64,000 bases of DNA from the NCBI GenBank assembly GCA_028699085.1, contig JAQVVF010000001.1, positions 28,333 to 92,332 on the forward strand. The letters are read 5' to 3'. This DNA comes from Patescibacteria group bacterium (GTDB lineage: Bacteria; Patescibacteriota; JABMPQ01; JAQVVF01). The position numbers and the translations under genes are program-made. Within the stretch, counting starts at the first letter, position 1. Each line of letters starts with the position of its first letter. The notes under the pieces are model-generated. The model worked only from the letters and a program-made list of their open reading frames with translations. It ran no database searches and was not told the origin of the DNA. Positions 2,212 to 64,000 of this stretch are shown piece after piece.

Positions 2212-4140
2212 ATGCCAAAGATATTAGGTATTGATCTAGGAACAACAAATTCCTGTATGGCCATCATTGAAGGTGGCGAGCCAAAAGTTTTAGAAAACAA
2301 AGATGGTAATCGTACGACTCCATCAGTTGTTGCTATAAAACAAGATGGTGAAAGAATTGTCGGACAGCTAGCCAAAAGACAAGCTGTTACAAATTCTGAA
2401 AACACAGTTTACTCTGTAAAAAGACTTATCGGTCGAAAATTTGATTCCGATGAAGTTCAAAAAGATCTTAAGGTTTTACCTTACAAAATTATGCAATCTG
2501 GTGTAGGCGTTAAAGTCATTATGCATGGAAAAGAGTACACTCCCCAAGAAATTTCAGCCATGGTTTTGCAAAAACTAAAAAAAGATGCTGAAGAAAAAAC
2601 AGGCGAAGAAATTAAAGAAGCAATTATTACAGTTCCAGCATATTTTGATGATGCTCAAAGACAAGCAACAAAAGATGCTGGAAAAATTGCTGGCTTAGAA
2701 GTAAAAAGAATTATCAATGAGCCAACAGCTGCTGCATTAGCTTATGGTTTTAATAAGAAAAAGAACGAAAAAATTGCAGTCTATGATCTAGGTGGTGGTA
2801 CATTTGATATTTCGATTCTTGAAGTGGGGAATGATACAGTTGAAGTAAAATCAACAAATGGCGATACTCATTTAGGTGGTGATGATTTTGATCAAAAAAT
2901 TATCGACTATTTAGTTAGTGAATTTAAAAAAGAACAAGGTATTGATTTATCAACTGATAAAATGGCAATCCAAAGATTAAAAGAATCAGCAGAAAAAGCA
3001 AAACACGAATTATCAAGTGCTTTAGAAACTGAAGTTAATCAGCCATTTATTACAACTGACAGTACAGGTCCAAAGCACTTAAATATTAAAATCACTCGTG
3101 CTAAACTAGAAGAGTTAGTCGGTGATTTAGTTGAAAAGACTATTGAGCCATGCAAGAAAGCTTTAGAAGATGCAAAGCTAAGCATTTCTGATATTAATGA
3201 AGTTGTAATGGTTGGTGGACAAACAAGAATGCCAATGGTACAGAAAAAAGTTGAAGAATTCTTTGGAAAGAAGCCACACATGGGTGTAAATCCAGATGAA
3301 GTCGTTGCTGTTGGTGCAGCTGTTCAAGCAGGTGTCCTTCAAGGTGATGTTAAAGACATTCTATTGTTAGATGTTACGCCATTAACATTAGGCCTTGAAA
3401 CATTAGGTGGAATCAGAACTCCGTTAATCAATAGAAATACAACTGTTCCAACTTCAAAATCTCAAGTATTTTCAACTGCAGCTGATAATCAGCCACAAGT
3501 TGAAATCAATGTCTTGCAAGGTGAAAGAGAAATGGCCAACGATAATAAATCTTTAGGTAGATTCATCCTAGACGGCATTCCTCCAGCCCCACGTGGTATT
3601 CCTCAAATTGAAGTCACTTTTGATATTGATGCAAACGGTATCTTAAATGTAAAAGCAAAAGACAAAGCAACTGGCAAAGAACAAAAGATTACCATTACTG
3701 CCTCTTCAGGATTATCAGATGAAGAAGTAGAGAAAATGAAAAAAGATGCTGAAGCTCATGCTGAAGAAGACAAAAAGATTAAAGAAAAAATTGAAATCAA
3801 AAACAATGCTGAAACTTTAATCTATACTGCTGAAAAAACCTTGAAGGATTCAAAAGGCAAGGTTGATGAAAAAACTTCAAAATTGATTACTGAAAAAATT
3901 GAAGCTTTGAAGAAAGCCAAAGATACCGCAGAGGCTACAGTTGTCAAAAAAGCTACAGAAGAATTGTCTAGCGAACTTCAAAAGGTTGGTCAGAAAATGT
4001 ACCAAGATGCTCAGGCTGCTCAAGCTAAAGCACAACAGGCTTCACAAGCTCAAAGTCAGCAAGCTCAAACCGCTCCTCATGCTGATCCAAAAGGTCCAAA
4101 TACTGTCAAGGGAGAATACAAAGAAGTTCCAAAAAAATAA
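2212..4140 (+). CDS. dnaK: Molecular chaperone DnaK (Hsp70)
   Basis: Hsp70 signatures [16 protein letters not shown] and [11 protein letters not shown] are present. 642 aa. Confidence 0.95.
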
Positions 4141-4151
4141 TATAATATTTT

Positions 4152-4175
4152 GGGGGCGGAAATAATTTCGCCCCC
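4152..4175 (+). terminator. GC-rich stem-loop GGGGGCG-N10-CGCCCCC after dnaK (weak U-tract)
   Basis: 7-bp G/C stem read directly. Only two T residues follow, so this may be a partial terminator or attenuator ahead of dnaJ. Confidence 0.45.
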
Positions 4176-4185
4176 TTGAATAATC

Positions 4186-4320
4186 AATTACCAAGAAACA
4201 AGAAACAAGCAATAGTCAATAACCAAATTAAAATAATCAAACTCGTCGAATCGTTTGTCGGTTTGGTTATTGATAAATTGAAATTTGTTTGTATCTTGTT
4301 TCTTGTATCTTGGTTATTTT
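4186..4320 (+). repeat. Copy 1 of a roughly 130-nt structured intergenic repeat (outer arms ACAAGAAACAAG / CTTGTTTCTTG; inner AATAACCAAA / TTTGGTTATT; apex CAAACTCGTCGAATCGTTTG)
   Basis: Aligns with copies at 40660-40797 and 49984-50113. All three lie between co-directional plus-strand genes. Confidence 0.75.
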
Positions 4321-4331
4321 AAGAATCAAAA

Positions 4332-5471
4332 ATGGCAAAAGATTACTACGAAATATTAGGTGTTACTAAAGATTCATCAGAAGATGAAATTAAAAAAGCT
4401 TTTTATAAAAAAGCTCATCAATATCATCCTGATAAAAAAACAGGTAACGCTGAAAAATTTAAGGAAGCTAATGAGGCTTACCAAGTTTTGTCTGATAAAG
4501 AAAAAAAATCACAATATGATCAATTCGGTCAAACTTTCGAGCAGGCTCAATCAGGAGGTGGATCTTATGGGGGGAATCCTTTTAGCGGTTTTAATGGTCA
4601 AGGTTTCAATGTCAATATGGAAGATTTTGATTTAGGTGATATTTTTTCATCTTTTTTCGGTGGCAAAAGAAAATCAAAGGGCACTAGAAATGCAGTGGCT
4701 GGCAATGATATTAGCATTGATCTAAATATTAATTTTGAAGATCCAGCCAAAGCTTTAGAAAAAGAAATTGAATTGTATAAAAAAATAAAATGTGATCGCT
4801 GTACAGGACAAGGTAATGAACCAGGCACGAAAATTAATACTTGTAAGAATTGTCAAGGCAGTGGTCAAGTAACGCAAGCTCGTCAAACAATGTTTGGCGT
4901 ATTTTCGCAAGCTACAATTTGTCCAGAATGCCAAGGCAATGGACAGATATTCGAACAAAATTGTACAAAATGCAAAGGCAAAGGCCAAGTTCAAGGATAT
5001 GAAAAAGTATCAATCAATATTCCGGCCGGAATTAGAGACGGCCAAACGCTAGAATTGAGCAACAAAGGAGAAGAAGGACAAAAAGGCGGACCAGCTGGCA
5101 ATTTATATATTTCAATTCATGTTGCTTCTCACAAATATTTCAAGAGAAAAGAGGATAATTTAATTTACGAACTGCCTCTTAGCTTTACTCAAGCAGCATT
5201 AGGCGATGAAATTGAAATTCCTACTCTTAACAGCAATATTGCTTTAAAAATTCCAGCTGGAGTTCAGACTGGAAAAATTTTTGTTATCGATGGCAAAGGC
5301 TTTCCACATTTGAATCAGCAAGGAGCCGGAGATTTATTAATTCCTGTTCGAGTTATTACTCCAACAAAATTGAATAAAAAAGAAAAAGAATTGTTGTTAG
5401 AATTAGCAAAGAATAATGGTCAAACAGTTAAAGTCAAAAAGAAAAACTTTTTTCATGATTTATTTGAGTAA
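4332..5471 (+). CDS. dnaJ: Chaperone DnaJ
   Basis: J-domain with HPD motif (YHPDKK), G/F-rich linker, four CxxCxGxG zinc-finger repeats. Confidence 0.9.
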
Positions 5472-5600
5472 TTCTTGCTCTAGTTACTTGTTAATAATTA
5501 CTAGCTCCTTCTGTTCAAATTATCCACTTTCCATTTTACATAATTAGATATTATTGATATAATAAAAACAAAAGTTTAAGACTAATTAAAACAAAAATAT

Positions 5601-6140
5601 ATGTCTAGTGGATTAGCTGCCGCGGTAAATTGGAGTTTACCGTCTTGGGATTTATTTATAATAATCTTTTTTGTCTTGGCTATATTAATTTATGGCATGT
5701 CTTTAGGACGAGAAAGAGTTTTAGCTGTTTTAGTCAGTGTCTACATTTCTCTGGCTATTACAACTAATTTGCCATTCATTAATGAAAAGATGTCCATGAA
5801 ATTTGGATTAGGTCCGGTATTTGTTCTCCAAATCTTGTCATTTTTTGGTTGTATCGCCGGCATCTTTTTCTTGTTATCTAGAGTAGGAGCTTTATCTGGT
5901 TTCGTTGGTAAGCCAAGCATTCCTGTTATTGCTTTGTTTAGCGTATTACAAGTTGGTCTTATTATCAGTTGCGTATTATCATTTTTACCTCCAACAGCCT
6001 TAGCATATTTGTCTTCAATGGTTAGATTTGCTTTTGCATCTGATATCGGAAGATTCTTATGGATTCTTGCTCCAATGGGCGCATTATATTTAATCCGTGA
6101 AAAAGAGCCAACAACTCCAGAGGCTGATAAAAAGAAATAA
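5601..6140 (+). CDS. Polytopic membrane protein, CvpA-like
   Basis: 179 aa with 4-5 hydrophobic helices. The N-terminal pattern resembles the CvpA family. The assignment is weak. Confidence 0.35.
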   Translation: MSSGLAAAVNWSLPSWDLFIIIFFVLAILIYGMSLGRERVLAVLVSVYISLAITTNLPFINEKMSMKFGLGPVFVLQILSFFGCIAGIFFLLSRVGALSGFVGKPSIPVIALFSVLQVGLIISCVLSFLPPTALAYLSSMVRFAFASDIGRFLWILAPMGALYLIREKEPTTPEADKKK

Positions 6141-6253
6141 TCTTGTCATCAGAAAATTTTTGTGTTATCTTAATTAAAGAAATTTTATATTTCTTTTTTA
6201 TTTAAATTATAAACCTCACAGCCAAACGGGCTGTGCCCAGAACGAAAAATATT

Positions 6254-6332
6254 TGTCATTCTGAACTGCAGTGAAGAATCCCATAATTATTTATTTAATA
6301 ATGGGATCCTTTGCTTCGCTCAGGATGACAGA
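6254..6332 (+). repeat. GC-richer imperfect hairpin element (arms TGTCATTCTGAACTGCAGTGAAGAATCCCAT and ATGGGATCCTTTGCTTCGCTCAGGATGACA) 40 nt upstream of tRNA-Lys
   Basis: Read directly. A second copy of the same roughly 30-nt motif pair lies at 42726-42801, abutting lysS. Confidence 0.7.
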
Positions 6333-6372
6333 AAATTTATCATTTATAATTTGTAATTTTTAATTAGATATT

Positions 6373-6443
6373 GGGTCCGTAGCTCAATGGTAGAGCTGTA
6401 GCCTTTTAAGCTATAGATAAGAGTTCGATTCTCTTCGGACCCA
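6373..6443 (+). tRNA. tRNA-Lys (anticodon UUU)
   Basis: Cloverleaf folded by hand: acceptor GGGTCCG/CGGACCC, D-arm GCTC-AATGGTA-GAGC, anticodon stem GTAGC/GCTAT with loop CTTTTAA (TTT at 6405-6407), T-arm AAGAG-TTCGATT-CTCTT, discriminator A. No CCA is encoded. Confidence 0.8.
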
Positions 6444-6597
6444 AAAATATAATTTCTGGTTGCCAGAGTTCCGGAACGTCAGAACGACCGAAATGTCAAA
6501 TTTATTTAGGTTAATAATCTGCATATGAAGGCAGTTTTTTGTTGTCAAAATTTAGCTATTCCGAAATTCCGAAGCTCCAATTTCCAAAGTTCTAAAA

Positions 6598-6625
6598 TTA
6601 AAAAATCCTGTCAAATAACAGGATT
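6598..6625 (-). terminator. Rho-independent terminator for the minus-strand gene at 6638-7150 (AATCCTGT-N6-ACAGGATT, then T-run on the minus strand)
   Basis: 8-bp stem read directly. The A-run at 6599-6605 on plus becomes a U-tract on the minus transcript. Confidence 0.6.
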
Positions 6626-6637
6626 AAAAGGTACAAA

Positions 6638-7150
6638 TCAAAATGGCTGAATTGCTTTTTGAAACATAATACAATCCAGAACATCTCTTTGGTCTGGGCG
6701 TAGATGAATACAAGTAATGACTTTATTCTTATTCATTACGAAAATCAAAGTGTCATAACGACGGTATCGAATTGTCTCCTCCAAGCTTGGACTTTTAGTA
6801 CAAAAGCTCTTTAGAAACAGTTCGGCTTCCCCTGAAAGCTCAATAGCATCTGGTGCAGTGCACAAGGCAACAATTAGCATGCCTATTGTGGACAAACATA
6901 ATATACCTGTATCTTCCCACATTCTATCAAATGCTAGCAATGCTTCATCAATTCTGCCCAATTCCAGGAATCTTCTTAAGTAATTACATTGAGCTGCCAT
7001 TTCAATACGATGAGGCACTGAAATAACATGCTCTGGAGACTTAAAAAAGTTGAAAAAACCAATCTGTCCTTCTGGTATTCTCAACCTCCACTGGACAAAG
7101 CGTTCAATAGCATGAACGCTTACGTAAATCTCGGGAGTCGGGGAGCACAT
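6638..7150 (-). CDS. Hypothetical protein (170 aa), GC-richer, led by a strong SD (GGAGGG-N7-ATG), located right after tRNA-Lys
   Basis: Long ORF with its own terminator. The N-terminal HAIERF motif loosely resembles DUF4258-type small toxin motifs, which is speculative. Confidence 0.4.
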   Translation of the reverse strand: MCSPTPEIYVSVHAIERFVQWRLRIPEGQIGFFNFFKSPEHVISVPHRIEMAAQCNYLRRFLELGRIDEALLAFDRMWEDTGILCLSTIGMLIVALCTAPDAIELSGEAELFLKSFCTKSPSLEETIRYRRYDTLIFVMNKNKVITCIHLRPDQRDVLDCIMFQKAIQPF

Positions 7151-7296
7151 CTTTTTGCCCTCCTCTACTTGTTTCTTGTCTAGGGTGCAATAATATATAA
7201 TAAAACTTTTTAATTAAAAAGTCAAGTTATTTACCAAAATAAAAAAATATGCTAATCTAGATATAACAGTAAATATATTAAAAATAAAATAAAAAT

Positions 7297-7722
7297 ATGA
7301 AAGATTTTTTTCCAAAAGCATTTCGCATTTTTATGGTTGCAGCTATTTTAATTGGCGGCGGTCTCTGGTTAGATTATGAGGCCAAAAAAGGTACCAAAGA
7401 GGAATCAGCTTTGGGCAGTATTATTAAAGCATATCAGAATTTTACAAAAGTTAATAAAAAAACTACAGCTAAAAAAAAGAAGAAAAAGAAAACAACAGCT
7501 ACGAATGAAAAACAAGCAACTAATACAACTACAAATCAAGATACAACAAAGGAAACTGCCAAAAAAAAGAAAGCAACTACAAATACAGAGAATACTACAA
7601 CTCAACAAGATCCATTAAAAAGTACCGGTGGCTATATTGACGACACAATCAAAGAAAAAGCGCGACAGGAAGCTTTAGATGCAGCACGAGAAATTTACAA
7701 TCAAACACAGACTCAGCAATAA
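7297..7722 (+). CDS. Hypothetical membrane-anchored protein with a Lys/Thr-rich low-complexity region
   Basis: N-terminal hydrophobic helix, then a K/T-rich disordered stretch encoded by two A8 homopolymer tracts (about 7475 and 7562). Confidence 0.4.
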   Translation: MKDFFPKAFRIFMVAAILIGGGLWLDYEAKKGTKEESALGSIIKAYQNFTKVNKKTTAKKKKKKKTTATNEKQATNTTTNQDTTKETAKKKKATTNTENTTTQQDPLKSTGGYIDDTIKEKARQEALDAAREIYNQTQTQQ

Positions 7723-7723
7723 T

Positions 7724-8026
7724 ATGATTATCAAATTTACTACTAAATTTACTCAAAATTCTCTGAACTTAATGCGCAAAATTGGCTATATGCCATGGCG
7801 TGATCCAAGATCAAACACTAATAGTTATATTAGACACCTTGGAGCTTCTTATTATCCTCGTTTTCATGCTTATCCAAAACTTGATCAAGAGGGCAATTTT
7901 ATGATTGATTTGCATTTTGATTGGCGCAGACCAATGCACAAAATAGGCATCAAATCAACAGAAGGCGAGGAAAGTGATGTTGTCCAAAAAGAAGTAACTA
8001 GAATTAAATCAATTTTAGGACAATAA
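7724..8026 (+). CDS. Hypothetical protein (about 100 aa)
   Basis: ORF 7679-8026, trimmed to the ATG at 7724 to avoid overlap with the previous gene. An intrinsic terminator follows. No family was recognised. Confidence 0.35.
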   Translation: MIIKFTTKFTQNSLNLMRKIGYMPWRDPRSNTNSYIRHLGASYYPRFHAYPKLDQEGNFMIDLHFDWRRPMHKIGIKSTEGEESDVVQKEVTRIKSILGQ

Positions 8027-8049
8027 ATTATATACTAGATATAAAAAGA

Positions 8050-8074
8050 AAAACAGCATTTCGCTGTTTTTTTG
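8050..8074 (+). terminator. Rho-independent terminator AACAGC-ATTTC-GCTGTT plus T7
   Basis: Read directly downstream of the 8026 stop. Confidence 0.7.
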
Positions 8075-8210
8075 CGTAATTATTTTATTACTTGTTCGTA
8101 TAGTTTTTAACACTTTGCAATAGGACAATTAATCAATTTTTGCAATTAAGATTGGAAATGCTTGACATGTTATAAAATCAGTGCTAAATTAATATGAATA
8201 GCAAAACTAA

Positions 8211-8239
8211 TTGACAGATTTGTAAATTTATGCTATCAT
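8211..8239 (+). promoter_or_regulatory. Consensus sigma70 promoter TTGACA-N17-TATCAT upstream of the 8299 gene
   Basis: Read directly: TTGACA at 8211-8216, 17-nt spacer, TATCAT at 8234-8239. Confidence 0.6.
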
Positions 8240-8298
8240 TATCAAGTATAATAAATTAAATTATTTAATATAGTTTTTCACTATATTAAACCAATATT

Positions 8299-9330
8299 AT
8301 GACTAAGATTAATGAATTTAACCCAACTAAAGACATTCTAGAAATACTTAGTGGTTTGAAAAAAAGAACCAAAAGTATTTTGCTTAAAAGATTCGGTTTG
8401 GGAGAAAAGAATAAGATGACTTTAGAGAGCATCGGACAAGCTTACAAAATTACTCGTGAAAGAGTAAGACAAATTGAGTCTGTTGCTTTATCTGAATTAA
8501 AAAAATCTCCTAAAATTACTGAATTAAAAAAATATGAAGCAATGTTAGAAGACTTACTCAATGAACACGGCAAAATCATGGAGCATAATTTTTTAATGTC
8601 AGAATTTAGAAAAAAATATAATCTAGACCCTATTCACGATAATGCAATCGAATTTGTATTAAAAGTTTCTTCAAAATTTAGTTCAATCAAAGAAGATGAA
8701 GAGATTAAAAAGACTTGGTTATTAGTTGATGCAGATTTAAATTTTTCTAAAAAAGTTATTAATTCTTTTGTTTTAAATCTAGAAGGCAAAGGCAAACCAG
8801 TATTAGAAAATGAGCTTTCTAACAATTTTGAATTAGAAATCAAAGACAGTAAAACATTAATTTCATATTTATCATTGAGCAAAAAAATATTAAAGAATCC
8901 ATTCAACGAATGGGGATTATCTGATTGGAGAGAAATTGTACCAAAAGGTGTTAAAGATAAGGCATATATTGTTTTAGATAAATTTAATAAGCCAGCTCAT
9001 TTCACAAAAATTACGGAACTTATTAATTCTGCAAAATTTGATTGCAAAACCGCTATTCCTCAAACTGTACACAATGAATTAATCAAAGATCAAAGATTTG
9101 TGTTGGTCGGTAGAGGCATGTATGCTTTGAAGAAATGGGGTTTTCAACAAGGAACAGTTGCTGAAATTATTGAACAAGTTATCAAAGAATCTGGAAAAAC
9201 TTTATCTAAAGAAAATATTATAAATAAGGTACTAGAACAAAGATTTGTTAAAAAGAATACAATTGTTCTAGCTTTACAAAACAAACAAAGATTCCAAAGA
9301 GTTGATGGATTATATTGCTTGGCAAAATAA
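8299..9330 (+). CDS. Putative transcription factor: N-terminal sigma-70 region-4-like HTH plus C-terminal HARE-HTH-like domain
   Basis: N-terminal LKRFGLGEKNKMTLESIGQAYKITRERVRQIESVAL matches the sigma70 region 4 / RpoD C-terminal pattern. C-terminal FVLVGRGMYALKKWGF matches the HARE-HTH signature (FVKVGRGLFGLREW in RpoE-delta). It sits immediately upstream of the membrane + ATPase pair. Confidence 0.55.
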   Translation: MTKINEFNPTKDILEILSGLKKRTKSILLKRFGLGEKNKMTLESIGQAYKITRERVRQIESVALSELKKSPKITELKKYEAMLEDLLNEHGKIMEHNFLMSEFRKKYNLDPIHDNAIEFVLKVSSKFSSIKEDEEIKKTWLLVDADLNFSKKVINSFVLNLEGKGKPVLENELSNNFELEIKDSKTLISYLSLSKKILKNPFNEWGLSDWREIVPKGVKDKAYIVLDKFNKPAHFTKITELINSAKFDCKTAIPQTVHNELIKDQRFVLVGRGMYALKKWGFQQGTVAEIIEQVIKESGKTLSKENIINKVLEQRFVKKNTIVLALQNKQRFQRVDGLYCLAK

Positions 9331-9405
9331 TTAATATTTTGTAGAATAGATAATAAGAGTACTTGGCTTTGCCAACTAATTTATAAAACTAAAATTACAA
9401 AATAA

Positions 9406-10695
9406 ATGACTGATCTTCCGTCATTAGATATTGCTTCTCAATTGCGTGATTTTTTTAGCACGTTTGGTTTTATTTTTGTCCAAGCTTGGTGGGCAATTAT
9501 ACTTGGCTTAATTTTCTTAGCTTATTATGCTTTTTTTAGAATACAAAATAATAAATTTTTAGCTGGAATTGAATATGTTCTTCTGGCAATTTCTGTACCA
9601 GCAGATAGCGAAAAAAGTCCGAAATCAATGGAACAAGTTTTGGCCGGATTCCATGGTATTTATTCTCCGCCTAATTGGTCAGAAGTCTGGATCAAAGGAG
9701 AACAACAAGCTCATATTAGTTTGGAATTAGTTGGTATTAATGGTCATGTCAGATTTATTGTTAGAACTCCTATTAAGCTTCGTGATGCAATTGAGGCTCA
9801 CATTTACGCACAATATCCAGATGCCGAACTTACCGAAGTTGAGGATTATACAGAATTTATTCCTAACAAATGGCCGAATGATCAATATGAATTGTTCGGC
9901 ACAGATTTTAAATTAATGAAGCCAGATTCCTATCCGATTCGAACATATATGCAATTTGCTGAAGAATTCGATAAGGGTTTTATCGATCCGATTTCTGCCT
10001 TCACTGAAGTTATGGGCAAATTAAATAACGGCGAGCAAATTTGGCTACAAATAACGATTAGACCGGTCAATGATTCATGGAAAGAAGAAGGTGAAAAAGA
10101 AGTTGCAAAGCTTATTGGTAAAAAAGTTGAATTGCCAGAAGATTTTTTTCAAAAAACAGTTGTTAAAGGTTGGCATAACGTTTTAAGTGCAACTGATGCA
10201 ATTTTACAAGTTCCTGCTGCTGAATCTAAAGAAACAAAAAAAGAGTATGAGTCTTTGATGCAATTTTTATCTCCTGGAGAACAAGATGTTGTCACATCAA
10301 TTCAGAGAAATATTGCCAAAGTTGGTTTTGAAACAAAATTCCGTTTCATTTATGTTGCAAAAAAAGATGTCTATCAAAAAGGACGTGGTGTTGTTGCGAC
10401 ATTAGGCGCTTTAAAACTTTTGCACACTCAAAATCTTAATTGGTTTTGGTTAGACAAACATACTAAAACGAAACTTGATTATTGGAAATTTAGAATTCCT
10501 GGTAAGCAAAGAAAAATTGTTAGATATTATAAAGAGCGCGATATGGATGCTGGAGTGCCGCCTTGCATTTTGAGTATTGAGGAATTAGCTACTTTATTTC
10601 ATTTCCCTTATGTTTCAGTTGAATCTCCTTCAGTTATTAGCGCACAATCAAGTAAAGCCGAGCCACCTTCAGATTTACCTGTTGGCAGGCAATAA
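9406..10695 (+). CDS. Single-pass membrane protein (429 aa), paralog of the N-terminal domain of the fused ATPase at 61742 onward
   Basis: One TM helix (aa 20-44). The following domain aligns with the N-terminal 430 aa of the 61742 ORF (LAISVPADSEKSP...INGHVRFIVRTPIKLRDAIEAHIYAQYPDAE versus LISVPREVKQ...INGEIRFYVSTPKRLQDYIEKTIHSQYPKAY). Confidence 0.6.
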   Translation: MTDLPSLDIASQLRDFFSTFGFIFVQAWWAIILGLIFLAYYAFFRIQNNKFLAGIEYVLLAISVPADSEKSPKSMEQVLAGFHGIYSPPNWSEVWIKGEQQAHISLELVGINGHVRFIVRTPIKLRDAIEAHIYAQYPDAELTEVEDYTEFIPNKWPNDQYELFGTDFKLMKPDSYPIRTYMQFAEEFDKGFIDPISAFTEVMGKLNNGEQIWLQITIRPVNDSWKEEGEKEVAKLIGKKVELPEDFFQKTVVKGWHNVLSATDAILQVPAAESKETKKEYESLMQFLSPGEQDVVTSIQRNIAKVGFETKFRFIYVAKKDVYQKGRGVVATLGALKLLHTQNLNWFWLDKHTKTKLDYWKFRIPGKQRKIVRYYKERDMDAGVPPCILSIEELATLFHFPYVSVESPSVISAQSSKAEPPSDLPVGRQ

Positions 10696-10710
10696 TTTAA
10701 TTTTAAAAAC

Positions 10711-12186
10711 ATGGCAAATAATGATATATCCGTTTTCGCAACGACAAACTATCGTAACAAAAAAGTAGTTTTTGGTATCAAGCGCGATGATCGTCGCAGA
10801 CACATGTATGTGATTGGAAAAACTGGCATGGGCAAAACAAACCTTATGGAAAATATGGCGATTTCTGATATTCGTGCTGGTAATGGTATTTGTGTTGTCG
10901 ATCCGCATGGCGAGTTTGCTGAGAGAATGTTAGATTTTGTGCCTGCTAATCGTATTAACGATGTTATCTATTTTAATCCAGGTGATATGGATTATCCAAT
11001 TGCTTTTAATGTTATGGAGAATATCAATCCTGCATATAAACATTTAATATCATCAGGACTTATCGGCGTTTTTAAAAAAATCTGGGCCGATTCCTGGGGT
11101 CCTCGTCTTGAATATGTTTTAAGAAATTCAATTTTAGCCTTACTCGATTATCCAGGCTCAACAATGCTTGGCATTATGAGAATGCTTGTAGATAAAGAAT
11201 ACCGAAAAAAAGTTATTGATAAGATACAAGATCCAGTAGTCAAGCAATTCTGGGTTGAAGAATATTCAAAATATCCAGATAAATTTCAAACAGAAGCAAT
11301 CGCACCTATCCAAAATAAAGTCGGACAATTTTTATCAATTTCCTTAATCAGAAACATTGTTGGCCAGTCAAAGTCTACAATTGATATGCGTGAAGCAATG
11401 GACACAAAGAAAATTCTAATCCTCAATCTAGCAAAAGGAAGAATTGGTGAAGATGCTTCAGCATTATTTGGCGCTGTCATTATAACCAAGATTCAATTAG
11501 CCGCCATGTCTCGTGTTGATATTCCGGAAGAAGAGAGAGCTGATTTTTATCTTTATGTCGATGAGTTCCAGAATTTTGCAACTGAATCATTTGCTGATAT
11601 TTTATCCGAAGCTAGAAAATATCACTTGAATTTAATTATCGGCCATCAATATATCGGGCAATTAGAAACAGGAGGATCAACAAAAGTACGTGATGCTGTT
11701 TTTGGCAATGTCGGTACAATTGCTTGTTTTAGAGTTGGTGCAGCTGATGCTGAATTTTTAGTCAGCGAATTTGAACCAATTTTTACTGAAATTGATTTAG
11801 TTAACCTAACAAAATATAATATCTATCTGAAATTAATGATTGATGGTGTTGCTTCTCAAGCATTCAGTGCTACCACCTTACCGCCATCTACAAGAAAAGA
11901 GGGCAATGCTGAAAAAATTATTAAAGTTTCGCGTGAACGATATGCGACTGACCGCAAGATTGTTGAAGAAAGAATTTCTAAATGGTCAGAAAATATTGTC
12001 AGAGATGAAGCAACAATGCCACAAGCAAGATTTTTTCCAAAGAAAAAAGAAGCTCAGCAAAGTCATCAACCTTTCAAAAAAGCATTTGGTGAAATCTTCA
12101 AACAAAAATTACAAAAAGAAGAAACCAAGCAAGAAGAAAAACCAAGAGAGACATTAAAGCCAGGACAAGTAATAAAAATGGATTAG
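10711..12186 (+). CDS. P-loop NTPase of the FtsK/HerA/TraD-VirD4 (coupling-protein-like) superfamily, with a K/E-rich C-terminal tail
   Basis: Walker A (VIGKTGMGKT) preceded by DDRRRHMYVIG, Walker B (LYVDEFQNF), and motifs VVDPHGE and GHQY. Paralog of the C-terminal half of the 61742 ORF. Confidence 0.65.
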   Translation: MANNDISVFATTNYRNKKVVFGIKRDDRRRHMYVIGKTGMGKTNLMENMAISDIRAGNGICVVDPHGEFAERMLDFVPANRINDVIYFNPGDMDYPIAFNVMENINPAYKHLISSGLIGVFKKIWADSWGPRLEYVLRNSILALLDYPGSTMLGIMRMLVDKEYRKKVIDKIQDPVVKQFWVEEYSKYPDKFQTEAIAPIQNKVGQFLSISLIRNIVGQSKSTIDMREAMDTKKILILNLAKGRIGEDASALFGAVIITKIQLAAMSRVDIPEEERADFYLYVDEFQNFATESFADILSEARKYHLNLIIGHQYIGQLETGGSTKVRDAVFGNVGTIACFRVGAADAEFLVSEFEPIFTEIDLVNLTKYNIYLKLMIDGVASQAFSATTLPPSTRKEGNAEKIIKVSRERYATDRKIVEERISKWSENIVRDEATMPQARFFPKKKEAQQSHQPFKKAFGEIFKQKLQKEETKQEEKPRETLKPGQVIKMD

Positions 12187-12199
12187 CATAATAAATTTT

Positions 12200-12225
12200 A
12201 GCCAGGATATATTCCTGGCTTTTTA
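12200..12225 (+). terminator. Rho-independent terminator AGCCAGGA-TATAT-TCCTGGCT plus T-run
   Basis: Read directly after the ATPase gene stop. Confidence 0.7.
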
Positions 12226-12264
12226 ATATTTACAAAAATGCAATAAAAAGATATACTATCACGT

Positions 12265-13377
12265 ATGCAAAAGCATGTCATTTGTGCAATGTCTGGCGGA
12301 GTAGACAGTAGTGTCGCTGCCGCATTATTAAAAAAGCAAGGTTTTAAAGTAACCGGTGTTTTTATGCGCTTTTGGCATGAACAAAATAACAAAACCTGTG
12401 CAACAAATAGATGCTGTTCTCAAGATTCATTTGATTCTGCAAGACAAGTTTGCCAGAAATTAGGCATTAGATTATATTCGCTTAATTGTGAAAAAGAATT
12501 TAAAAATCATGTTGTTGATTATTTTTTGGATTATTCTAAAAAAGGTTTGACGCCAAATCCTTGTATTGCTTGTAACAAACACATTAAGTTTGGATTCTTG
12601 ATTAAGAAATTACAGGAACTTAATGCTGATTATTTGGCTACAGGACATTATGCTCAAGTCAAAAGTCAAAAGTCAAAAGTCAAAAGCGACAAGGAAAAAG
12701 TAAAAAAAACATATAAACTTTTACGGTCTAAAGATAAAAATAAAGACCAATCATATTTTCTATATAATTTAAATCAAAAAAAACTAGCCAGGATTTTATT
12801 CCCAATTGGAAATTATACTAAACCAGAAGTCCGTGAATTAGCGAAAAACTTTGGTTTGCCAACAGCCTCAAAAGAAGAATCGCAAGAAATTTGTTTTATT
12901 CAAGAAAAAAATTATCATAACTTTTTAAAAAGAAATTTAAAAAAAATCAAACCAGGTAAGATTAAAACAGTAAGCGGCAAAACAATAGGCGAACATCAGG
13001 GCTTATGTTTTTATACTATTGGCCAAAGAAAGGGAATAGGGCTTGGTTTAGAAAAAACTTTTTATGTTGCCAAGCTTGATTTTAAGCACAATATTTTATA
13101 TGTCACAGATAATCCGGATGATAAGCAATTATTTAGTAAAATAATTAAATTAAAAAATTTGAATCTAATAGGGGAAAGACTGACTCTCCCCTATTCTTGC
13201 CAAATAAAAATTCGTTCACATGCCTCGCCTGTTTCAGGAAAAATTATTAAAATAAACAAAAATCAAGCAATTATTTCCCTGCTTTCTTCTGTTCGTGCCG
13301 TAATGCCTGGACAATCTGCAGTTATTTATAAAAGAGAAATTTTAATTGGCGGAGGAGTCATTGCAAAAGCAGAGTAA
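12265..13377 (+). CDS. mnmA: tRNA-specific 2-thiouridylase MnmA
   Basis: PP-loop SGGVDSS motif and a Cys-containing catalytic region. Contains a K-rich insertion encoded by a heptamer repeat. Confidence 0.85.
   Translation: MQKHVICAMSGGVDSSVAAALLKKQGFKVTGVFMRFWHEQNNKTCATNRCCSQDSFDSARQVCQKLGIRLYSLNCEKEFKNHVVDYFLDYSKKGLTPNPCIACNKHIKFGFLIKKLQELNADYLATGHYAQVKSQKSKVKSDKEKVKKTYKLLRSKDKNKDQSYFLYNLNQKKLARILFPIGNYTKPEVRELAKNFGLPTASKEESQEICFIQEKNYHNFLKRNLKKIKPGKIKTVSGKTIGEHQGLCFYTIGQRKGIGLGLEKTFYVAKLDFKHNILYVTDNPDDKQLFSKIIKLKNLNLIGERLTLPYSCQIKIRSHASPVSGKIIKINKNQAIISLLSSVRAVMPGQSAVIYKREILIGGGVIAKAE
12657..12685 (+). repeat. Heptamer tandem repeat (GTCAAAA) x4 inside mnmA
   Basis: Read directly. It encodes QVKSQKSKVKS within a low-complexity loop. 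Confidence 0.8.
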
Positions 13378-13436
13378 TTGTTTTAAAATAGAAATAACAA
13401 ATAGTCAAAAATTTTAATTATAATTATTTTAAACCT

Positions 13437-13640
13437 ATGGATTTTACCGATCCAAAACGTCTTTTGCAATCAAAACTGGATGATTTTCGTGATGATATCG
13501 ATGAAAGGGAAAAAGAGCTTCGTGAAATAGATGGACAGCTCAAGGAATTAAGTAGAAAAAAGGAGCTCTTAGAAGCAGAATTAGAAGAGTTTTATGCTGA
13601 AGAAAAAAGATTGCAACAAGAAGTAAAGCGTCCAGAATGA
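13437..13640 (+). CDS. Small charged coiled-coil protein (67 aa), hypothetical
   Basis: ORF with heptad-like E/K/L content. No SD. Could be spurious. Confidence 0.3.
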   Translation: MDFTDPKRLLQSKLDDFRDDIDEREKELREIDGQLKELSRKKELLEAELEEFYAEEKRLQQEVKRPE

Positions 13641-61737: not shown

Positions 61738-61741
61738 AAAA

Positions 61742-64000
61742 TGCAAAATCAAATCGAAAACATAACTAGTTCTATAAACGAGTCGTATCTTGGCATTATT
61801 TTTATTACTGCAGTTTTTCTTGTCGGAATATTATTAATTATCAGCTTATTAAAAATAATGCGAAAAAGGAATATTATTCCACATTCTTTGAATATGGTTA
61901 CTTTGCTAATTTCTGTCCCAAGAGAAGTCAAGCAAGTTACAGAAGAAGCAAAAAAAGAAGAAAAAGAAATGATTTCAATCGCAGAAACAATGTTTGCTAA
62001 TATCTATTCTATTGAAACTGCGTCGAATGGTTTGATGTCTGGACTCTATGGAAAAGAATATGTTTCTTTTGAAATAGTCGCCATTAACGGTGAGATTCGT
62101 TTTTATGTCTCTACTCCGAAAAGATTGCAGGATTATATTGAAAAGACAATTCATTCTCAATATCCGAAAGCCTATATTTCCGAAGAAGGCGAGTACAATG
62201 TGTTTAAACCCAAAAGTCAAGTTAGGGGTGTTATGCTTGTAACTGAAAAACAAAACTATTTGCCATTTAAAACATATCAAACAATAGAAACCGATCCTCT
62301 GAATGCTATTACAAATGCATTAAGCAAATTAGATGAAAAAACAGAAGGGGCAGCAATTCAATATTTAATTAGACCAGCTGGAAAAAAATGGATGAAAAAA
62401 GGTCCTCATATTGCTAGAGAAATGCAACGCGGAAAAACTTATGAATATGCATCAGCAAGCCTTTTAGGCAAACTTTTTAAAAGAAAAGAAGAAGGCAAAT
62501 CTAGTGTCCTAGAGCAAGCAGTGTTGCCTGGAGCTTCAGAACAACAAATGTCTGGAGGAGCGCCAATGCTTTCTCCGATGATTCAAGAACAAATTAAAGC
62601 TTTGGAAGTAAAATCTTCTAAGCTTGGTTTTGAAACAAATATTAGAATTATTTCCTCATCAGATTTAGATACAAAAGCAGAAGCAAATTTAAGAAATATT
62701 GTCGGCGCTTTTACAGAATATACGGATCCAAACCTGAACAAATTTGTTGAAAAGAAATTGAATGTTCAGAAACTAATTCAGGCTTTCATTTTTCGCACTT
62801 TTGACGAAAAAAGAAAAAGCATTTTGAACACTGAAGAATTAGCATCTGTATTCCATTTGCCGACAAAATTTGCCGAAACACCAAATATTCATTGGCTATT
62901 AGCAAGAGATGCTCCGGCTCCACATAATGTTCCTAAAGAAGGATTATTATTAGGTAAAAACACATTTCGAGGTATCGAAACACCTATTCGGATTAAAGAT
63001 GATGATCGAAGAAGACACATGTATATTATTGGCCAAACTGGTGTTGGTAAATCAAACTTTTTACAAAACATGATTGTTCAAGATATTAAAGATGGCAAAG
63101 GTCTTTGCGTTGTTGATCCACATGGAGATTTAGTTGAAAGTGTCTTGCCATTTATTCCAAAAGAAAGAGTTGATGATATTATTCTTTTTGAACCTTTTGA
63201 TGTTAATCGACCGATGGGCTTAAATATGCTTGAATTTAAAACTGAAGACCAAAAAGATTTTGCTGTCCAGGAAATGATGCAAATTTTTTACAAACTATTT
63301 CCGCCAGAAATGATTGGCCCAATGTTCGAGCATCAAATGAGAAATGTCATGCTGACATTAATGGCTGACAAAGAAAATCCTGGAACTTTAGCCGAAATTC
63401 CAAGAATGTTCACAGATAATGAATATGCCAAAGAATGGATTGAAAAATTGAAAGATCCTGTTGTTAAAGCTTTTTGGGAGAAAGAAATGGCAAAGACTTC
63501 AGATTTTCACAAATCAGAAATGCTTGGTTATCTAATTTCTAAAGTTGGTCGTTTTGTTGAAAATGAAATGATGAGAAATATAATTGGCCAAAGCCATTCT
63601 TCTTTTGATCTTAGAAAAATCATGGATGAGGGTAAAGTCTTGCTTGTAAATTTATCAAAAGGAAAAATTGGTGAAACAAATTCTTCTTTATTAGGCTTAA
63701 TTATTGTTTCTAAAATTCAGATGGCAGCTTATTCACGTGCTGATATTCCAGAATCAGAAAGAAAAGACTTTTATTTATACGTTGATGAGTTCCAAAATTT
63801 TGCTACCGACAGTTTTGCTTCAATATTATCCGAAGCCAGAAAATACAGACTTAATTTAATCGTCGCTCACCAATATGTTAAACAGCTTGAAGAGAAGATC
63901 AGAGATGCTGTCTTTGGAAATGTCGGTACTTTTACTGCATTTCGTGTTGGTGTAGAGGATGCTGAGATTGTCGCCAAAGAGCTTGAACCTGTTTTTACAG
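61742..64000 (+). CDS. Fused single-TM membrane domain plus TraD/VirD4-like P-loop ATPase (partial, runs off the window end)
   Basis: Hand-translated open frame from the ATG at 61742 with no stop to 64000. The N-terminal 430 aa is paralogous to the 9406 protein. The C-terminal part is paralogous to the 10711 ATPase (DDRRRHMYIIGQTGVGKS, VVDPHGD, LYVDEFQNF, AHQY). Confidence 0.6.

What the first reader, a model, noticed from the sequence alone, without database searches (positions are those of the whole stretch)
8299..9330. Unusual regulator architecture: sigma70 region-4 HTH fused to a HARE-HTH, behind a perfect consensus promoter and heading the membrane/ATPase locus
The N-terminus matches the sigma-70 region 4 (-35-binding) helix-turn-helix (TLESIGQAYKITRERVRQIE). 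The C-terminus carries a HARE-HTH-like motif (FVLVGRGMYALKKWGF). No sigma region 2 is present, so this is not a sigma factor. It may be an anti-sigma-like or promoter-binding accessory protein. It sits directly upstream of the membrane + ATPase pair, consistent with a dedicated regulator.
Basis: partly seen in the sequence, partly recalled or inferred. Interest (0 to 1): 0.55.

Follow-up and report, generated by a model that had tools for sequence, protein, structure and literature searches.

The report
Essential sigma-domain-4 winged-helix protein, Patescibacteria
This gene encodes a protein found across the ultrasmall Patescibacteria (CPR) that joins a copy of the main sigma factor's promoter-binding domain to four winged-helix domains; published transposon data show its counterpart is essential, yet nobody has worked out what it does.

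Summary
Residues 9-69 form a sigma-70 region-4 domain closest to primary sigma factors. It is followed by four tandem winged helices, the last two HARE-HTH-like. There is no sigma region 2, so it is not a sigma factor.

The family is large (at least 7,982 clusters at 90% identity) and appears confined to Patescibacteria. In 67 of 74 species the gene is followed directly by a DUF8128 membrane protein, whose fold resembles the VirB4 N-terminal domain. In about half, a TrwB/VirD4-like ATPase comes next, and the two are sometimes fused, including a second copy in this window.

The promoter here matches consensus at 11 of 12 positions, not 12. A TTGAC -35 element lies upstream in 92% of species, against 21% of other intergenic regions.

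Published Tn-seq in Southlakia epibionticum scores the counterpart gene as essential and the downstream ATPase fusion as non-essential. That argues against a purely local regulator. My best reading is a general factor that binds promoters or RNA polymerase. The mechanism is untested.

The parts
8049..8071 (+). Terminator-like hairpin closing the upstream unit (AAAAACAGC...GCTGTTTTT plus a T run); marks the start of an independent transcription unit
   Evidence: the scan reports it on the - strand; the sequence is palindromic and is followed by a T run on the + strand
8162..8190 (+). Second TTGACA -35-like hexamer with a weak -10 (TAAATT), 49 bp upstream of the main one
   Evidence: 10 of 12 matches; extra TTGAC copies occur upstream of this gene in 21 of 66 species against 10 of 568 other intergenic regions
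8211..8239 (+). Main promoter: TTGACA, 17 nt, TG-n-TATCAT (extended -10); 11 of 12 consensus matches
   Evidence: the same layout, TTGAC(a/t)-N14-TG-N-TAtAAT, emerges as the consensus 50-140 nt upstream of the homologs
8299..9330 (+). Gene for the sigma-4 + 4x winged-helix protein (343 aa), here called SigHARE
8323..8505 (+). Sigma-70 domain 4 (aa 9-69). The residues that align without gaps to E. coli sigma70 R554, R562, T572-E574, T583-R586, R588 and Q589 are invariant in 84 homologs
8509..8565 (+). Long connecting helix (aa 71-89)
8575..8724 (+). Winged helix 1 (aa 93-142); no Pfam match; net charge -1
8737..8919 (+). Winged helix 2 (aa 147-207); no Pfam match; net charge 0
8950..9138 (+). 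Winged helix 3, a HARE-HTH (aa 218-280). Most of helix 254-263 is invariant or nearly so (Q255, T256, V257, H258, N259, E260, L261, I262, K263; P254 varies), as are wing residues R266, F267, L269, G271-G273, Y275 and L277. Net charge +7
9151..9327 (+). Winged helix 4, HARE-HTH-like (aa 285-343; 21.6 bits when scanned alone); R315 and T321 invariant, K318 and N320 nearly so; net charge +5
9406..10695 (+). DUF8128 (PF26449) membrane protein, 429 aa: one N-terminal transmembrane segment (aa ~16-47) plus a cytoplasmic alpha/beta domain whose fold resembles the VirB4/TrwK N-terminal domain
10711..12186 (+). Soluble TrwB/VirD4-like (type IV coupling protein-like) P-loop ATPase, 491 aa, with no transmembrane segment
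12200..12220 (+). Strong bidirectional terminator-like hairpin ending the three-gene unit
61741..64000 (+). Second, fused DUF8128-ATPase paralog: one uninterrupted ORF running off the window end, with no SigHARE gene upstream

Best explanation
The gene encodes a Patescibacteria-specific, essential, general DNA- or RNA-polymerase-associated factor. It is not a sigma factor and not a purely local regulator. It was built from a duplicated copy of the primary sigma factor's domain 4, the module that binds the -35 element and the beta-flap, placed at the N-terminus and fused through a long helix to four tandem winged helices. The last two winged helices are HARE-HTH domains of the kind found in the RNA polymerase delta subunit.

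Shown: the architecture; invariance of every residue that aligns with the -35-contacting residues of sigma70; basic charge on sigma-4 and on the two HARE domains; its position as first gene of an operon with a DUF8128 membrane anchor, usually followed by or fused to a TrwB/VirD4-like ATPase; an unusually conserved -35 plus extended -10 promoter; and, for the counterpart gene in another species, essentiality independent of the ATPase.

Inferred: sigma-4 docks on TTGACA-type hexamers, or on the polymerase beta-flap tip in competition with sigma-A domain 4. The basic HARE winged helices contact adjacent nucleic acid or the polymerase. The protein thereby modulates sigma-A-dependent transcription genome-wide. 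Binding to the TTGAC element(s) of its own promoter would give autoregulation. The membrane module is a co-expressed, possibly interacting partner, but it is not needed for the essential role.
For: Domains: Pfam hits above cutoff. Confident AF2 model with sigma-4 and four winged helices. Sigma-4 superposes on SigA region 4 at 1.1-1.4 A, and the rest resembles the tandem winged-helix arrays of SelB and UFL1/DDRGK1.

Origin from the primary sigma: the family profile matches SigA/RpoD region 4 at E ~2e-19. Identity is 43% to a CPR RpoD region 4 and 37% to E. coli sigma70 region 4, both without gaps.

DNA-contact residues: R23, R31, T41, L42, E43, T52, R53, E54, R55, R57 and Q58 are invariant in 84 homologs. 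They align with sigma70 R554, R562, T572-E574, T583-R586, R588 and Q589. The roles of those sigma70 residues are from my recollection of Campbell et al. 2002 and the Gardella and Siegele 1989 genetics.

Charge: sigma-4 +6, WH3 +7, WH4 +5.

Breadth: at least 7,982 clusters at 90% identity, and all 120 listed carry PF04545 + PF05066. There are 494 clusters at 50% identity with E <= 1e-30. At least 576 species genomes carry it, and nearly all of the 80 loci kept are titled as Patescibacteria or unclassified bacteria.

Essentiality: SEML1_0294 (349 aa, PF04545 27-72 + PF05066 225-283, flagged core and Patescibacteria-enriched) is ES/ES/ES. The downstream gene SEML1_0293 is NE/NE/NE, so polarity cannot explain the result (PMC10633639 Tables S1/S2).

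Promoter: TTGAC is present in 61 of 66 upstream intergenic regions against 122 of 568 others (Fisher p 8e-31). Two or more copies occur in 21 of 66 against 10 of 568 (p 2e-15). The consensus is TTGACa/t-N14-TG-N-TAtAAT.
Against: No binding experiment or complex model exists, so the DNA, beta-flap and RNA-polymerase contacts are all inferences from homology. The near-universal adjacency to DUF8128 (67 of 74) across two different flanking contexts suggests the main function could lie with the membrane module rather than with RNA polymerase. [quoted passage not shown] TTGACA is not enriched in this window overall (21 and 24 occurrences per strand against 21.6 expected), so there is no sign of a large regulon of special sites. 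The conserved strong promoter may simply reflect high expression. I inferred that SEML1_0294 is the counterpart of this gene from its architecture, length and synteny, not from an alignment I made.
Confidence: 0.45

Rival explanations
1. The protein is the DNA-recognition or adaptor subunit of the membrane machine. DUF8128 (transmembrane segment plus VirB4-N-domain-like fold) and the TrwB-like ATPase would form a membrane-anchored hexameric translocase. The five-HTH protein would load or orient DNA on it, as the winged-helix gamma domain does for FtsK/SpoIIIE or as TraM/TrwA-type accessory proteins do for conjugative coupling proteins.
For: DUF8128 lies directly downstream on the same strand in 67 of 74 species, in two otherwise different neighbourhoods: secD-secF...ATPase, and leuS...mltG-like. 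The intergenic regions before DUF8128 and the ATPase almost never contain TTGAC (2% and 0%), which implies co-transcription. DUF8128 and the ATPase are fused in L040, L076, L079, in the second copy in this window and in SEML1_0293, so they form one machine. The ATPase's closest solved relatives are the DNA-coupling proteins TrwB and DotL. 5,713 VirD4-like homologs occur in 2,918 Patescibacteria genomes, only 148 lie near virB4, and the authors suggest they may have been exapted for other functions (PMC12102498).
Against: In S. epibionticum the ATPase fusion is dispensable while the HTH protein is essential, so this cannot be its only job. Half of the loci lack the ATPase next to DUF8128 (31 of 62). 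The second fused paralog in this window has no such gene upstream. Conserved gene order is generally strong in these genomes: mnmA, alaS and ftsA also stay nearby.
Confidence: 0.2
2. This is the first reader's view: a dedicated local transcription regulator (activator or repressor) of the operon it heads, acting at the operon promoter.
For: It is the first gene of the unit. Co-occurrence with the pair is confirmed. The promoter retains one or more TTGAC elements that its own sigma-4 could recognise. An essential repressor of a toxic membrane ATPase would fit the Tn-seq pattern.
Against: The regulator is essential while its target is dispensable. The family is phylum-wide, is not duplicated within one genome in the cases I examined, and keeps dozens of invariant residues at 40% overall identity, which is unlike typical local regulators. 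Five DNA-binding-type domains is elaborate for a one-operator regulator. No conserved operator appears beyond the -35 and -10 elements in 59 aligned promoters.
Confidence: 0.15
3. It is the Patescibacteria version of the RNA polymerase delta subunit, as JGI annotates several members. It would be a stoichiometric polymerase subunit that binds the beta' shelf/jaw through the HARE-HTH and promotes recycling.
For: HARE-HTH scores above the Pfam cutoff. There is a weak hit to TIGR04567, RNAP_delt_lowGC (28.7 bits). The DPAM parse of SEML1_0294 assigns aa 216-285 to ECOD domain e7f75L1, and 7f75 chain L is B. subtilis delta. JGI names some members 'RNA polymerase delta subunit'.
Against: The TIGR04567 score is below its cutoff of 42. 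Delta's function depends on a roughly 80-residue acidic disordered tail with net charge -47 (PMC7749165). This protein ends right after WH4, and its C-terminal domains are basic. Delta has one HARE domain and no sigma-4.
Confidence: 0.1
4. It is a degenerate or split sigma factor that supplies region 4 in trans to a primary sigma lacking it.
For: Its region 4 is most similar to that of primary sigma factors. Some annotations call members 'RpoS'.
Against: There is no sigma-2 or sigma-3 domain by sequence or by fold, and region 4 is N-terminal. Patescibacteria RpoD proteins keep their own region 4: L049 9215..10492 (425 aa) ends in ...[28 protein letters not shown]..., and SEML1_0063 has regions 1.2, 2, 3 and 4.
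Confidence: 0.03

Closest known systems
Domain 4 (regions 4.1-4.2) of primary sigma factors (SigA/RpoD)
   Same: Same fold (1.1-1.4 A rmsd). 37-43% identity without gaps. All residues aligned to the -35-contacting residues are invariant.
   Different: It is N-terminal rather than C-terminal. There are no sigma-2, sigma-3 or sigma-1.1 domains. It is followed by four winged helices. The residues aligned to the basic activator-contact patch (sigma70 K593-H600) are not conserved.
RNA polymerase delta subunit (RpoE) of Firmicutes (PDB 7f75_L, 2krc)
   Same: Contains a HARE-HTH winged helix. An independent DPAM parse of SEML1_0294 assigned its HARE domain to the delta N-terminal domain.
   Different: It has no acidic disordered tail. 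It has two HARE-like domains plus two further winged helices plus sigma-4. It scores below the NCBIfam cutoff. Its domains are basic.
SEML1_0294 of Southlakia epibionticum ML1 (Saccharibacteria), PROKKA-annotated 'RpoS' in Wang et al. 2023 (PMC10633639)
   Same: Same length class (349 aa), same Pfam pair at the same positions, same sigma-4 plus winged-helix parse, and the same downstream partner, there fused into one 921-aa protein. It is the only member with experimental data: essential by Tn-seq.
   Different: The 'RpoS' label is a mis-annotation. The paper does not discuss the gene. I inferred that the two genes correspond from architecture and synteny, not from an alignment.
Tandem winged-helix arrays: the four C-terminal winged helices of SelB (1lva, 2uwm) and UFL1/DDRGK1 (8b9x)
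   Same: A string of consecutive winged helices (Foldseek E 5e-5 to 3e-4).
   Different: There is no sequence similarity (10-12% identity) and global rmsd is high. SelB's array binds an RNA hairpin and UFL1's binds the ribosome, so the resemblance is of fold arrangement only.
Stand-alone sigma-70 region-4 proteins of phages (BFVD A0A6J5S254, A0A6J5LKM7)
   Same: They show that isolated sigma-4 domains exist as separate proteins.
   Different: They are 94-136 aa with no winged-helix array, and their functions are unknown.
Type IV coupling proteins TrwB/VirD4, and VirB4 (for the downstream pair)
   Same: The ATPase matches TrwB_AAD_bind, DUF87 and TraG-D_C, and matches TrwB (1e9r) at E 1e-8. The DUF8128 fold resembles the VirB4/TrwK N-terminal domain (E 1e-5).
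   Different: The membrane anchor is a separate polypeptide here. No relaxase or type IV secretion genes turned up in what I examined of the neighbourhood (I did not search for them), and in Patescibacteria most such homologs lie far from virB4 (PMC12102498). The N-half is VirB4-like and the C-half VirD4-like.

Membership tests
Sigma-70 family sigma factor | Sigma-2 domain (regions 2.1-2.4: core binding, -10 recognition and melting) | tested here: not met
   No Sigma70_r2 hit at E <= 1. The AF2 model has winged helices where sigma-2 or sigma-3 would be. A genuine CPR RpoD does contain it.
Sigma-70 family sigma factor | Sigma-4 domain (region 4) located at the C-terminus | tested here: not met
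   Region 4 is present (44.3 bits) but lies at the N-terminus, aa 9-69 of 343.
Pfam Sigma70_r4 (PF04545) domain family | Score at or above the gathering threshold of 24.1 bits | tested here: met
   44.3 bits, E 1.3e-11. The profile matches PDB SigA region 4 at E 2e-19.
Pfam HARE-HTH (PF05066) domain family | Score at or above the gathering threshold of 25.9 bits | tested here: met
   36.8 bits for the whole protein. Scanned separately, WH3 gives 25.1 bits and WH4 gives 21.6 bits.
RNA polymerase delta subunit (RpoE, TIGR04567) | Equivalog score at or above 42 bits | tested here: not met
   28.7 bits over aa 220-280.
RNA polymerase delta subunit (RpoE, TIGR04567) | Long acidic intrinsically disordered C-terminal region | tested here: not met
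   The protein ends at aa 343, directly after WH4. The C-terminal domains carry net charges of +7 and +5 and are modelled at pLDDT above 90. Delta's tail is described in PMC7749165.
RNA polymerase delta subunit (RpoE, TIGR04567) | Binds RNA polymerase core at the beta' shelf/jaw | not testable with these tools
   This needs a pull-down, cryo-EM or a multimer prediction.
Patescibacteria sigma-4 + HARE-HTH family (NCBI name 'sigma factor-like helix-turn-helix DNA-binding protein'; flagged core and CPR-enriched in Wang et al. 2023) | A protein of about 330-410 aa with N-terminal PF04545 and C-terminal PF05066 | tested here: met
   All 120 listed homologs have this architecture, at 38-100% identity over 94-100% of the query.
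Patescibacteria sigma-4 + HARE-HTH family (NCBI name 'sigma factor-like helix-turn-helix DNA-binding protein'; flagged core and CPR-enriched in Wang et al. 2023) | A DUF8128 gene directly downstream on the same strand | tested here: met
   In this window the gap is 75 bp. The arrangement holds in 67 of 74 related loci and is confirmed with called genes in L081-L083.
Anti-sigma factor | Binds and sequesters a sigma factor; carries a recognisable anti-sigma domain | tested here: inconclusive
   No anti-sigma Pfam or NCBIfam domain was found. Binding cannot be tested here. A sigma-4 mimic could still compete with sigma-A for the beta-flap or for -35 DNA.
Type IV coupling protein (VirD4/TrwB), for the downstream ATPase | P-loop nucleotide-binding domain of the TrwB type | tested here: met
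   TrwB_AAD_bind at E 7.5e-13 (48.6 bits, cutoff 20.5). TrwB 1e9r at E 1e-8.
Type IV coupling protein (VirD4/TrwB), for the downstream ATPase | Its own N-terminal transmembrane anchor | tested here: not met
   The ATPase has no hydrophobic segment (maximum KD19 of 1.52). The anchor is on the separate DUF8128 protein, and is fused in the paralog at 61741 onward.
Type IV coupling protein (VirD4/TrwB), for the downstream ATPase | Genetic association with a relaxase or a type IV secretion channel | not tested
   I made no systematic search for VirB4 or relaxase genes in the window. The literature reports that only 148 of 5,713 Patescibacteria homologs lie near virB4 (PMC12102498).

The most novel reading that the evidence does not exclude
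An essential, lineage-defining component of Patescibacteria transcription: a sigma-4 mimic that occupies the RNA polymerase beta-flap or -35 elements genome-wide. It would either be a new polymerase subunit or initiation factor, or it would physically tether polymerase or promoter DNA to a membrane VirB4/VirD4-like motor, linking transcription to translocation of DNA or protein across the membrane. Its own conserved, often duplicated TTGAC promoter element would serve as the autoregulatory sensor.
Probability: 0.2. Interest if true: 0.85.

Novelty: new variant of a known kind. Interest (0 to 1): 0.66.

Why it matters
Patescibacteria make up a large share of bacterial diversity, yet almost nothing is known about how they control transcription. 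The 2024 PNAS perspective I searched contains no mention of sigma factors, transcription factors or RNA polymerase.

This protein has several properties that make it a good entry point:
- It is essential in the one genetically tractable species.
- It is flagged as a core, Patescibacteria-enriched family.
- It is made from recognisable transcription parts: a copy of the primary sigma factor's -35/beta-flap module plus delta-like winged helices.

An essential non-sigma protein that keeps every -35-contacting residue of sigma-A would be a new way to modulate bacterial promoter recognition.

The protein also gives the first functional handle on DUF8128 and on the thousands of orphan VirD4-like ATPases in these genomes, whose role is an open question (PMC12102498).

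Practically, several annotations need correcting: 'RpoS' in S. epibionticum, 'RNA polymerase delta subunit' in JGI records, and generic 'hypothetical protein' labels.

Tried and rejected
- Split-sigma idea, in which the protein supplies region 4 to a truncated RpoD: rejected. CPR RpoD genes found in L049 and L004 keep region 4, as does SEML1_0063.
- Apparent paralogs P0101 and P0103 on one 1.22-Mb contig: both sit in the same secA-secDF-...-alaS-ftsA block at opposite ends of the contig. This looks like two related genomes joined in assembly, not true paralogy. The second 'SigHARE' ORF in L049 is simply RpoD.
- Defence-system reading: PADLOC gives only a region-4 match to MzaA and generic HerA/mad8 P-loop matches, and nothing for DUF8128.
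- Phage origin: no viral structure matches the whole architecture.
- A conserved operator or leader RNA: aligning 59 promoters shows nothing conserved beyond the -35 and extended -10 elements. Rfam finds nothing credible between 7600 and 12600. A small AU hairpin in the 5' UTR is unremarkable (z = -1.96).
- Global TTGACA enrichment in the window: absent.
- Sequence search of PDB with the winged-helix half alone: only designed repeat proteins and noise.
- Pfam on isolated WH1, WH2 and the linker: no hits.
- Literature: no paper in the library combines HARE-HTH with Patescibacteria, and none mentions DUF8128. The 2012 HARE-HTH paper (Aravind and Iyer) was not retrievable, so I cannot say whether it noted a sigma-4 fusion.
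- One synteny script had a bug (zero counts). It was corrected. The Fisher tests are unaffected.
Full report
**1. The observation**

Pfam assigns Sigma70_r4 to aa 17-69 (E 1.3e-11, 44.3 bits, cutoff 24.1) and HARE-HTH to aa 218-280 (E 5.4e-9, 36.8 bits, cutoff 25.9). No other sigma region is found. NCBIfam returns only partial region-4 matches to RpoD, RpoS and MzaA, hundreds of bits below their cutoffs, plus a sub-threshold match to the low-GC delta subunit (28.7 bits against a cutoff of 42). No curated full-length family therefore claims the protein.

It matches consensus at 11 of 12 positions. A second TTGACA lies at 8162. Promoter-like matches in this AT-rich stretch are no more frequent than in shuffles. 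Terminator-like hairpins at 8049-8071 and 12200-12220 bracket a three-gene unit with internal gaps of 75 and 15 bp.

**2. Anatomy of the protein**

I built an 84-sequence alignment (A2) and obtained an AlphaFold2 model with mean pLDDT 92 and pTM 0.80. The model contains, in order:
- sigma domain 4 (aa 9-69);
- a long helix (aa 71-89);
- four consecutive winged helices (aa 93-142, 147-207, 218-277 and 287-341).

Foldseek against PDB superposes the N-terminal domain on SigA region 4 at 1.1-1.4 A over 57-72 residues. It matches the remainder to tandem winged-helix arrays in UFL1/DDRGK1, the four C-terminal winged helices of SelB, and Dcc1. Scanned separately, WH3 and WH4 both score as HARE-HTH (25.1 and 21.6 bits), while WH1 and WH2 hit nothing.

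Net charges are +6 (sigma-4), -1, 0, +7 and +5. The outer domains therefore look like nucleic-acid binders and the middle two like spacers or protein-contact modules.

**3. The sigma-4 domain is a copy of the primary sigma's domain 4, with its DNA-reading residues intact**

The family profile matches region 4 of SigA/RpoD structures at E ~2e-19, better than it matches alternative sigma factors. It aligns to region 4 of a Patescibacteria RpoD at 43% identity.

Under that alignment, the family-invariant residues R23, R31, T41-L42-E43, T52-R53-E54-R55, R57 and Q58 correspond to sigma70 R554, R562, T572-E574, T583-R586, R588 and Q589. From my knowledge of the Taq sigma-A region 4/-35 DNA structure (Campbell et al. 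2002) and of the classical specificity mutants at R584 and R588 (Gardella 1989; Siegele 1989), these are the residues that contact the TTGACA element. Their invariance is the strongest sequence-level clue to function. It also fits retention of the whole fold for beta-flap binding, and I could not separate the two possibilities.

**4. It is not a sigma factor and not a detached piece of one**

No sigma-2 or sigma-3 domain exists by sequence or by fold, and region 4 is at the wrong end of the protein. I asked whether Patescibacteria RpoD might lack region 4, which would make this protein a trans-acting region 4. It does not. An RpoD in locus L049 (9215..10492, 425 aa) has regions 2, 3 and 4. S. 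epibionticum RpoD (SEML1_0063) has regions 1.2, 2, 3 and 4.

**5. Family size and distribution**

All 120 listed share the PF04545 + PF05066 architecture at 330-410 aa. Source names include 'sigma factor-like helix-turn-helix DNA-binding protein' (NCBI) and 'RNA polymerase delta subunit' (JGI), all from Patescibacteria/Parcubacteria-type MAGs.

An exhaustive search with only the winged-helix half found 494 clusters at 50% identity with E <= 1e-30. The top 150 again have the same length and layout, so the array does not turn up with other N-terminal domains. Nearly all are titled Patescibacteria or unclassified 'bacterium'. Three contigs are labelled Gammaproteobacteria, Thermodesulfobacteriota and Spirochaetaceae. 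The two that are long enough to show flanking genes have the same Patescibacteria synteny, so all three are probably mis-binned.

**6. Gene neighbourhood**

In the 80 loci kept, a homolog of the downstream membrane protein starts within 700 bp on the same strand in 67 of 74 loci that have enough flanking sequence. Three more have it after an inserted gene. The ATPase follows in 31 of 62.

Two arrangements recur (flanking genes identified by eye and, for L081-L083, by precomputed Pfam):
- secD-secF-SigHARE-DUF8128-ATPase;
- (membrane protein)-leuS-SigHARE-DUF8128-mltG-like-mnmA.

The SigHARE-DUF8128 pair is the invariant core of both. General synteny is strong in these genomes, since mnmA, alaS and ftsA also persist nearby. 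Adjacency alone is therefore weaker evidence here than it would be in other phyla. Persistence of the pair across two different flanking contexts is still notable.

**7. What the partner genes are**

The membrane protein belongs to PF26449/DUF8128. No paper in the library mentions that name. It has one transmembrane segment (aa ~16-47) with the more positive flank on the C-terminal side. Its AlphaFold2 model (pLDDT 84) resembles the N-terminal domain of VirB4/TrwK in R388 type IV secretion structures (Foldseek E 1e-5, probability 1.0, query-normalised TM-score 0.36, high global rmsd). I treat this as a fold-level resemblance of moderate confidence.

The ATPase has no transmembrane segment. It matches TrwB_AAD_bind, DUF87 and TraG-D_C, and its nearest solved relatives are TrwB and DotL.

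The two proteins are one functional unit:
- they are a single ORF in L040, L076 and L079;
- they are fused in S. epibionticum SEML1_0293 (921 aa);
- a second paralog in this same window is one uninterrupted ORF from 61741 to the window end, and it has no SigHARE gene upstream.

A recent survey counted 5,713 VirD4-like homologs in 2,918 Patescibacteria genomes. Only 148 lie near virB4, and the authors suggested exaptation to other functions (PMC12102498). That paper does not mention a sigma-like partner.

**8. The promoter is a conserved feature**

Across species, 61 of 66 intergenic regions upstream of this gene contain TTGAC, against 122 of 568 other intergenic regions of at least 40 bp in the same loci (Fisher p 8e-31). 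Two or more copies occur in 21 of 66 against 10 of 568 (p 2e-15), often 5-12 bp apart.

Anchoring on the motif yields the consensus TTGAC(a/t)-N14-TG-N-TAtAAT, located 50-140 nt before the start codon, with nothing else conserved. The anchor itself is by construction. The extended -10 at the correct spacing is only partly independent, because anchors followed by a TA...T match were preferred.

Intergenic regions before DUF8128 and the ATPase almost never contain TTGAC (2% and 0%), which supports co-transcription from the SigHARE promoter. A gene whose product carries a -35-reading domain has an exceptionally well-kept, and often duplicated, -35 element. That could reflect high expression or autoregulation, and I cannot tell which.

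**9. Experimental evidence from the literature**

Wang et al. 2023 (Cell; PMC10633639) performed Tn-seq in the Saccharibacterium Southlakia epibionticum.

SEML1_0294 appears in their Table S2 as PROKKA 'RNA polymerase sigma factor RpoS', with PF04545 at aa 27-72 and PF05066 at aa 225-283. Its DPAM parse is 'tri-helical, winged, winged, winged', and the HARE domain is assigned to ECOD e7f75L1. 7f75 chain L is B. subtilis delta. Table S1 gives it as 1,050 bp (349 aa) and flags it as a core family and as Patescibacteria-enriched, following Meheust et al. 2019. It is called ES/ES/ES: 24 insertions in the input DNA, then 1, 1 and 2 after selection.

The adjacent downstream gene SEML1_0293, the fused DUF8128-ATPase, is NE/NE/NE with 87-120 insertions, although its normalised reads fall about four-fold over the passages. 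Polarity therefore cannot explain the essentiality.

The paper's text does not discuss the gene, and neither does Meheust et al.. I inferred that SEML1_0294 corresponds to this gene from architecture, size and synteny, not from an alignment.

**10. Interpretation**

An activator dedicated to a dispensable target should not be essential. This protein is also phylum-wide, shows no duplication within one genome in the cases I examined, and keeps dozens of invariant residues at about 40% overall identity.

The best-supported reading (confidence about 0.45) is a general factor acting on promoters or on RNA polymerase. Sigma-4 would bind TTGACA-type elements or the beta-flap tip. The basic HARE winged helices would bind neighbouring nucleic acid or the polymerase. 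The protein's own promoter would be a plausible feedback site.

The main rival (about 0.2) is that the protein is the DNA-recognition subunit of the DUF8128/TrwB-like membrane motor, with a further essential role.

A true delta subunit is unlikely (about 0.1). The acidic tail that defines delta's mechanism is absent, and delta's binding site on the beta' shelf/jaw (PMC7749165) is remote from the flap.

**11. Comparison with what is known, and novelty**

The parts are familiar: region 4 of a primary sigma factor, the HARE-HTH of delta, tandem winged helices, and a coupling-protein-like ATPase. I could not find the combination described in the searchable literature. That combination is an N-terminal primary-sigma domain 4 fused to four winged helices, essential, lineage-wide, and heading an operon with a VirB4-N-like anchor and a VirD4-like motor.

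Databases carry the family only under generic or wrong names. I could not retrieve the 2012 HARE-HTH paper to check whether it mentions such a fusion.

I rate it a new variant of a known kind (sigma-derived, delta-like transcription accessory proteins), with a real chance of being more than that.

**12. Limits**

- No binding, localisation or complex-structure evidence exists.
- Both structure-prediction slots went to monomers.
- The 80 loci are the best matches to this query and under-sample distant Patescibacteria classes.
- The intergenic-region statistics rest on my own simple ORF calls.

Noticed in passing
window 61741-64000 (+): A second DUF8128 + TrwB-like ATPase paralog, here one uninterrupted ORF that runs off the window end. 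The N-part is 26% identical to the 9406 gene and the ATPase part 49% identical to the 10711 gene. No sigma-4/HARE gene precedes it. Upstream lie a 155-aa Lys/Glu-rich ORF (61270-61737) and a divergent gene that looks AAA+/Clp-like by eye, not checked (60021-61136, - strand).
   Followed up: partly
L082 and L083 (JGI contig Ga0606640_0000003, 1,223,257 bp; positions 1,072,916-1,090,040 and 1-14,982): The same secA/phosphodiesterase/secD/secF/SigHARE/DUF8128/ATPase/mnmA/alaS/ftsA block occurs twice on one contig with diverged sequences (P0101 and P0103). This suggests two related genomes were joined in assembly rather than a real duplication.
   Followed up: partly
L007, L043, L052 (record titles): Contigs carrying this gene are labelled Gammaproteobacteria, Thermodesulfobacteriota and Spirochaetaceae MAGs. 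L007 and L043 show flanking genes typical of the Patescibacteria arrangement; L052 is too short to tell much. All three are probably mis-binned contigs.
   Followed up: no
L002, L020, L033, L036, L041, L042, L049, L056 (upstream of the homologous gene): Tandem TTGAC repeats 5-12 bp apart, for example TTGACTTGACatTTGACat in L020 and TTGACattcgcTTGACtt in L041. These could be overlapping promoters or extra binding sites for a sigma-4 domain.
   Followed up: partly
Literature: S. epibionticum SEML1_0294 and SEML1_0293 (PMC10633639 Tables S1/S2): SEML1_0294 is PROKKA-annotated 'RNA polymerase sigma factor RpoS' but has only region 4 plus a HARE-HTH, so the name is a mis-annotation. Normalised reads for the 'non-essential' neighbour SEML1_0293 fall from 5817 to 2940 to 1372 over the passages, which hints at a mild fitness cost.
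   Followed up: partly
window 7297-7722 (+) and 6638-7150 (-): Two ORFs with no family match lie upstream. One is a 141-aa protein with a hydrophobic N-terminal stretch (by eye) and long Lys/Thr/Asn-rich low-complexity runs. The other is a 170-aa ORF on the opposite strand with no homolog in any of the 80 related loci.
   Followed up: no
L049 7347-10492 (+): A 425-aa RpoD with a highly Lys-rich N-terminal extension of about 70 aa lies about 5 kb downstream of the SigHARE operon. The preceding 620-aa ORF has a size and position that suggest dnaG, which I did not check. RpoD's region 4 caused my clustering to mislabel it as a second SigHARE.
   Followed up: yes
window 8264-8290 (5' UTR of the gene): A small AU-rich hairpin (11 bp stem, -7.6 kcal/mol, z = -1.96 against shuffles) lies just before the start codon. 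There is no Rfam match, and it is probably not significant.
   Followed up: yes
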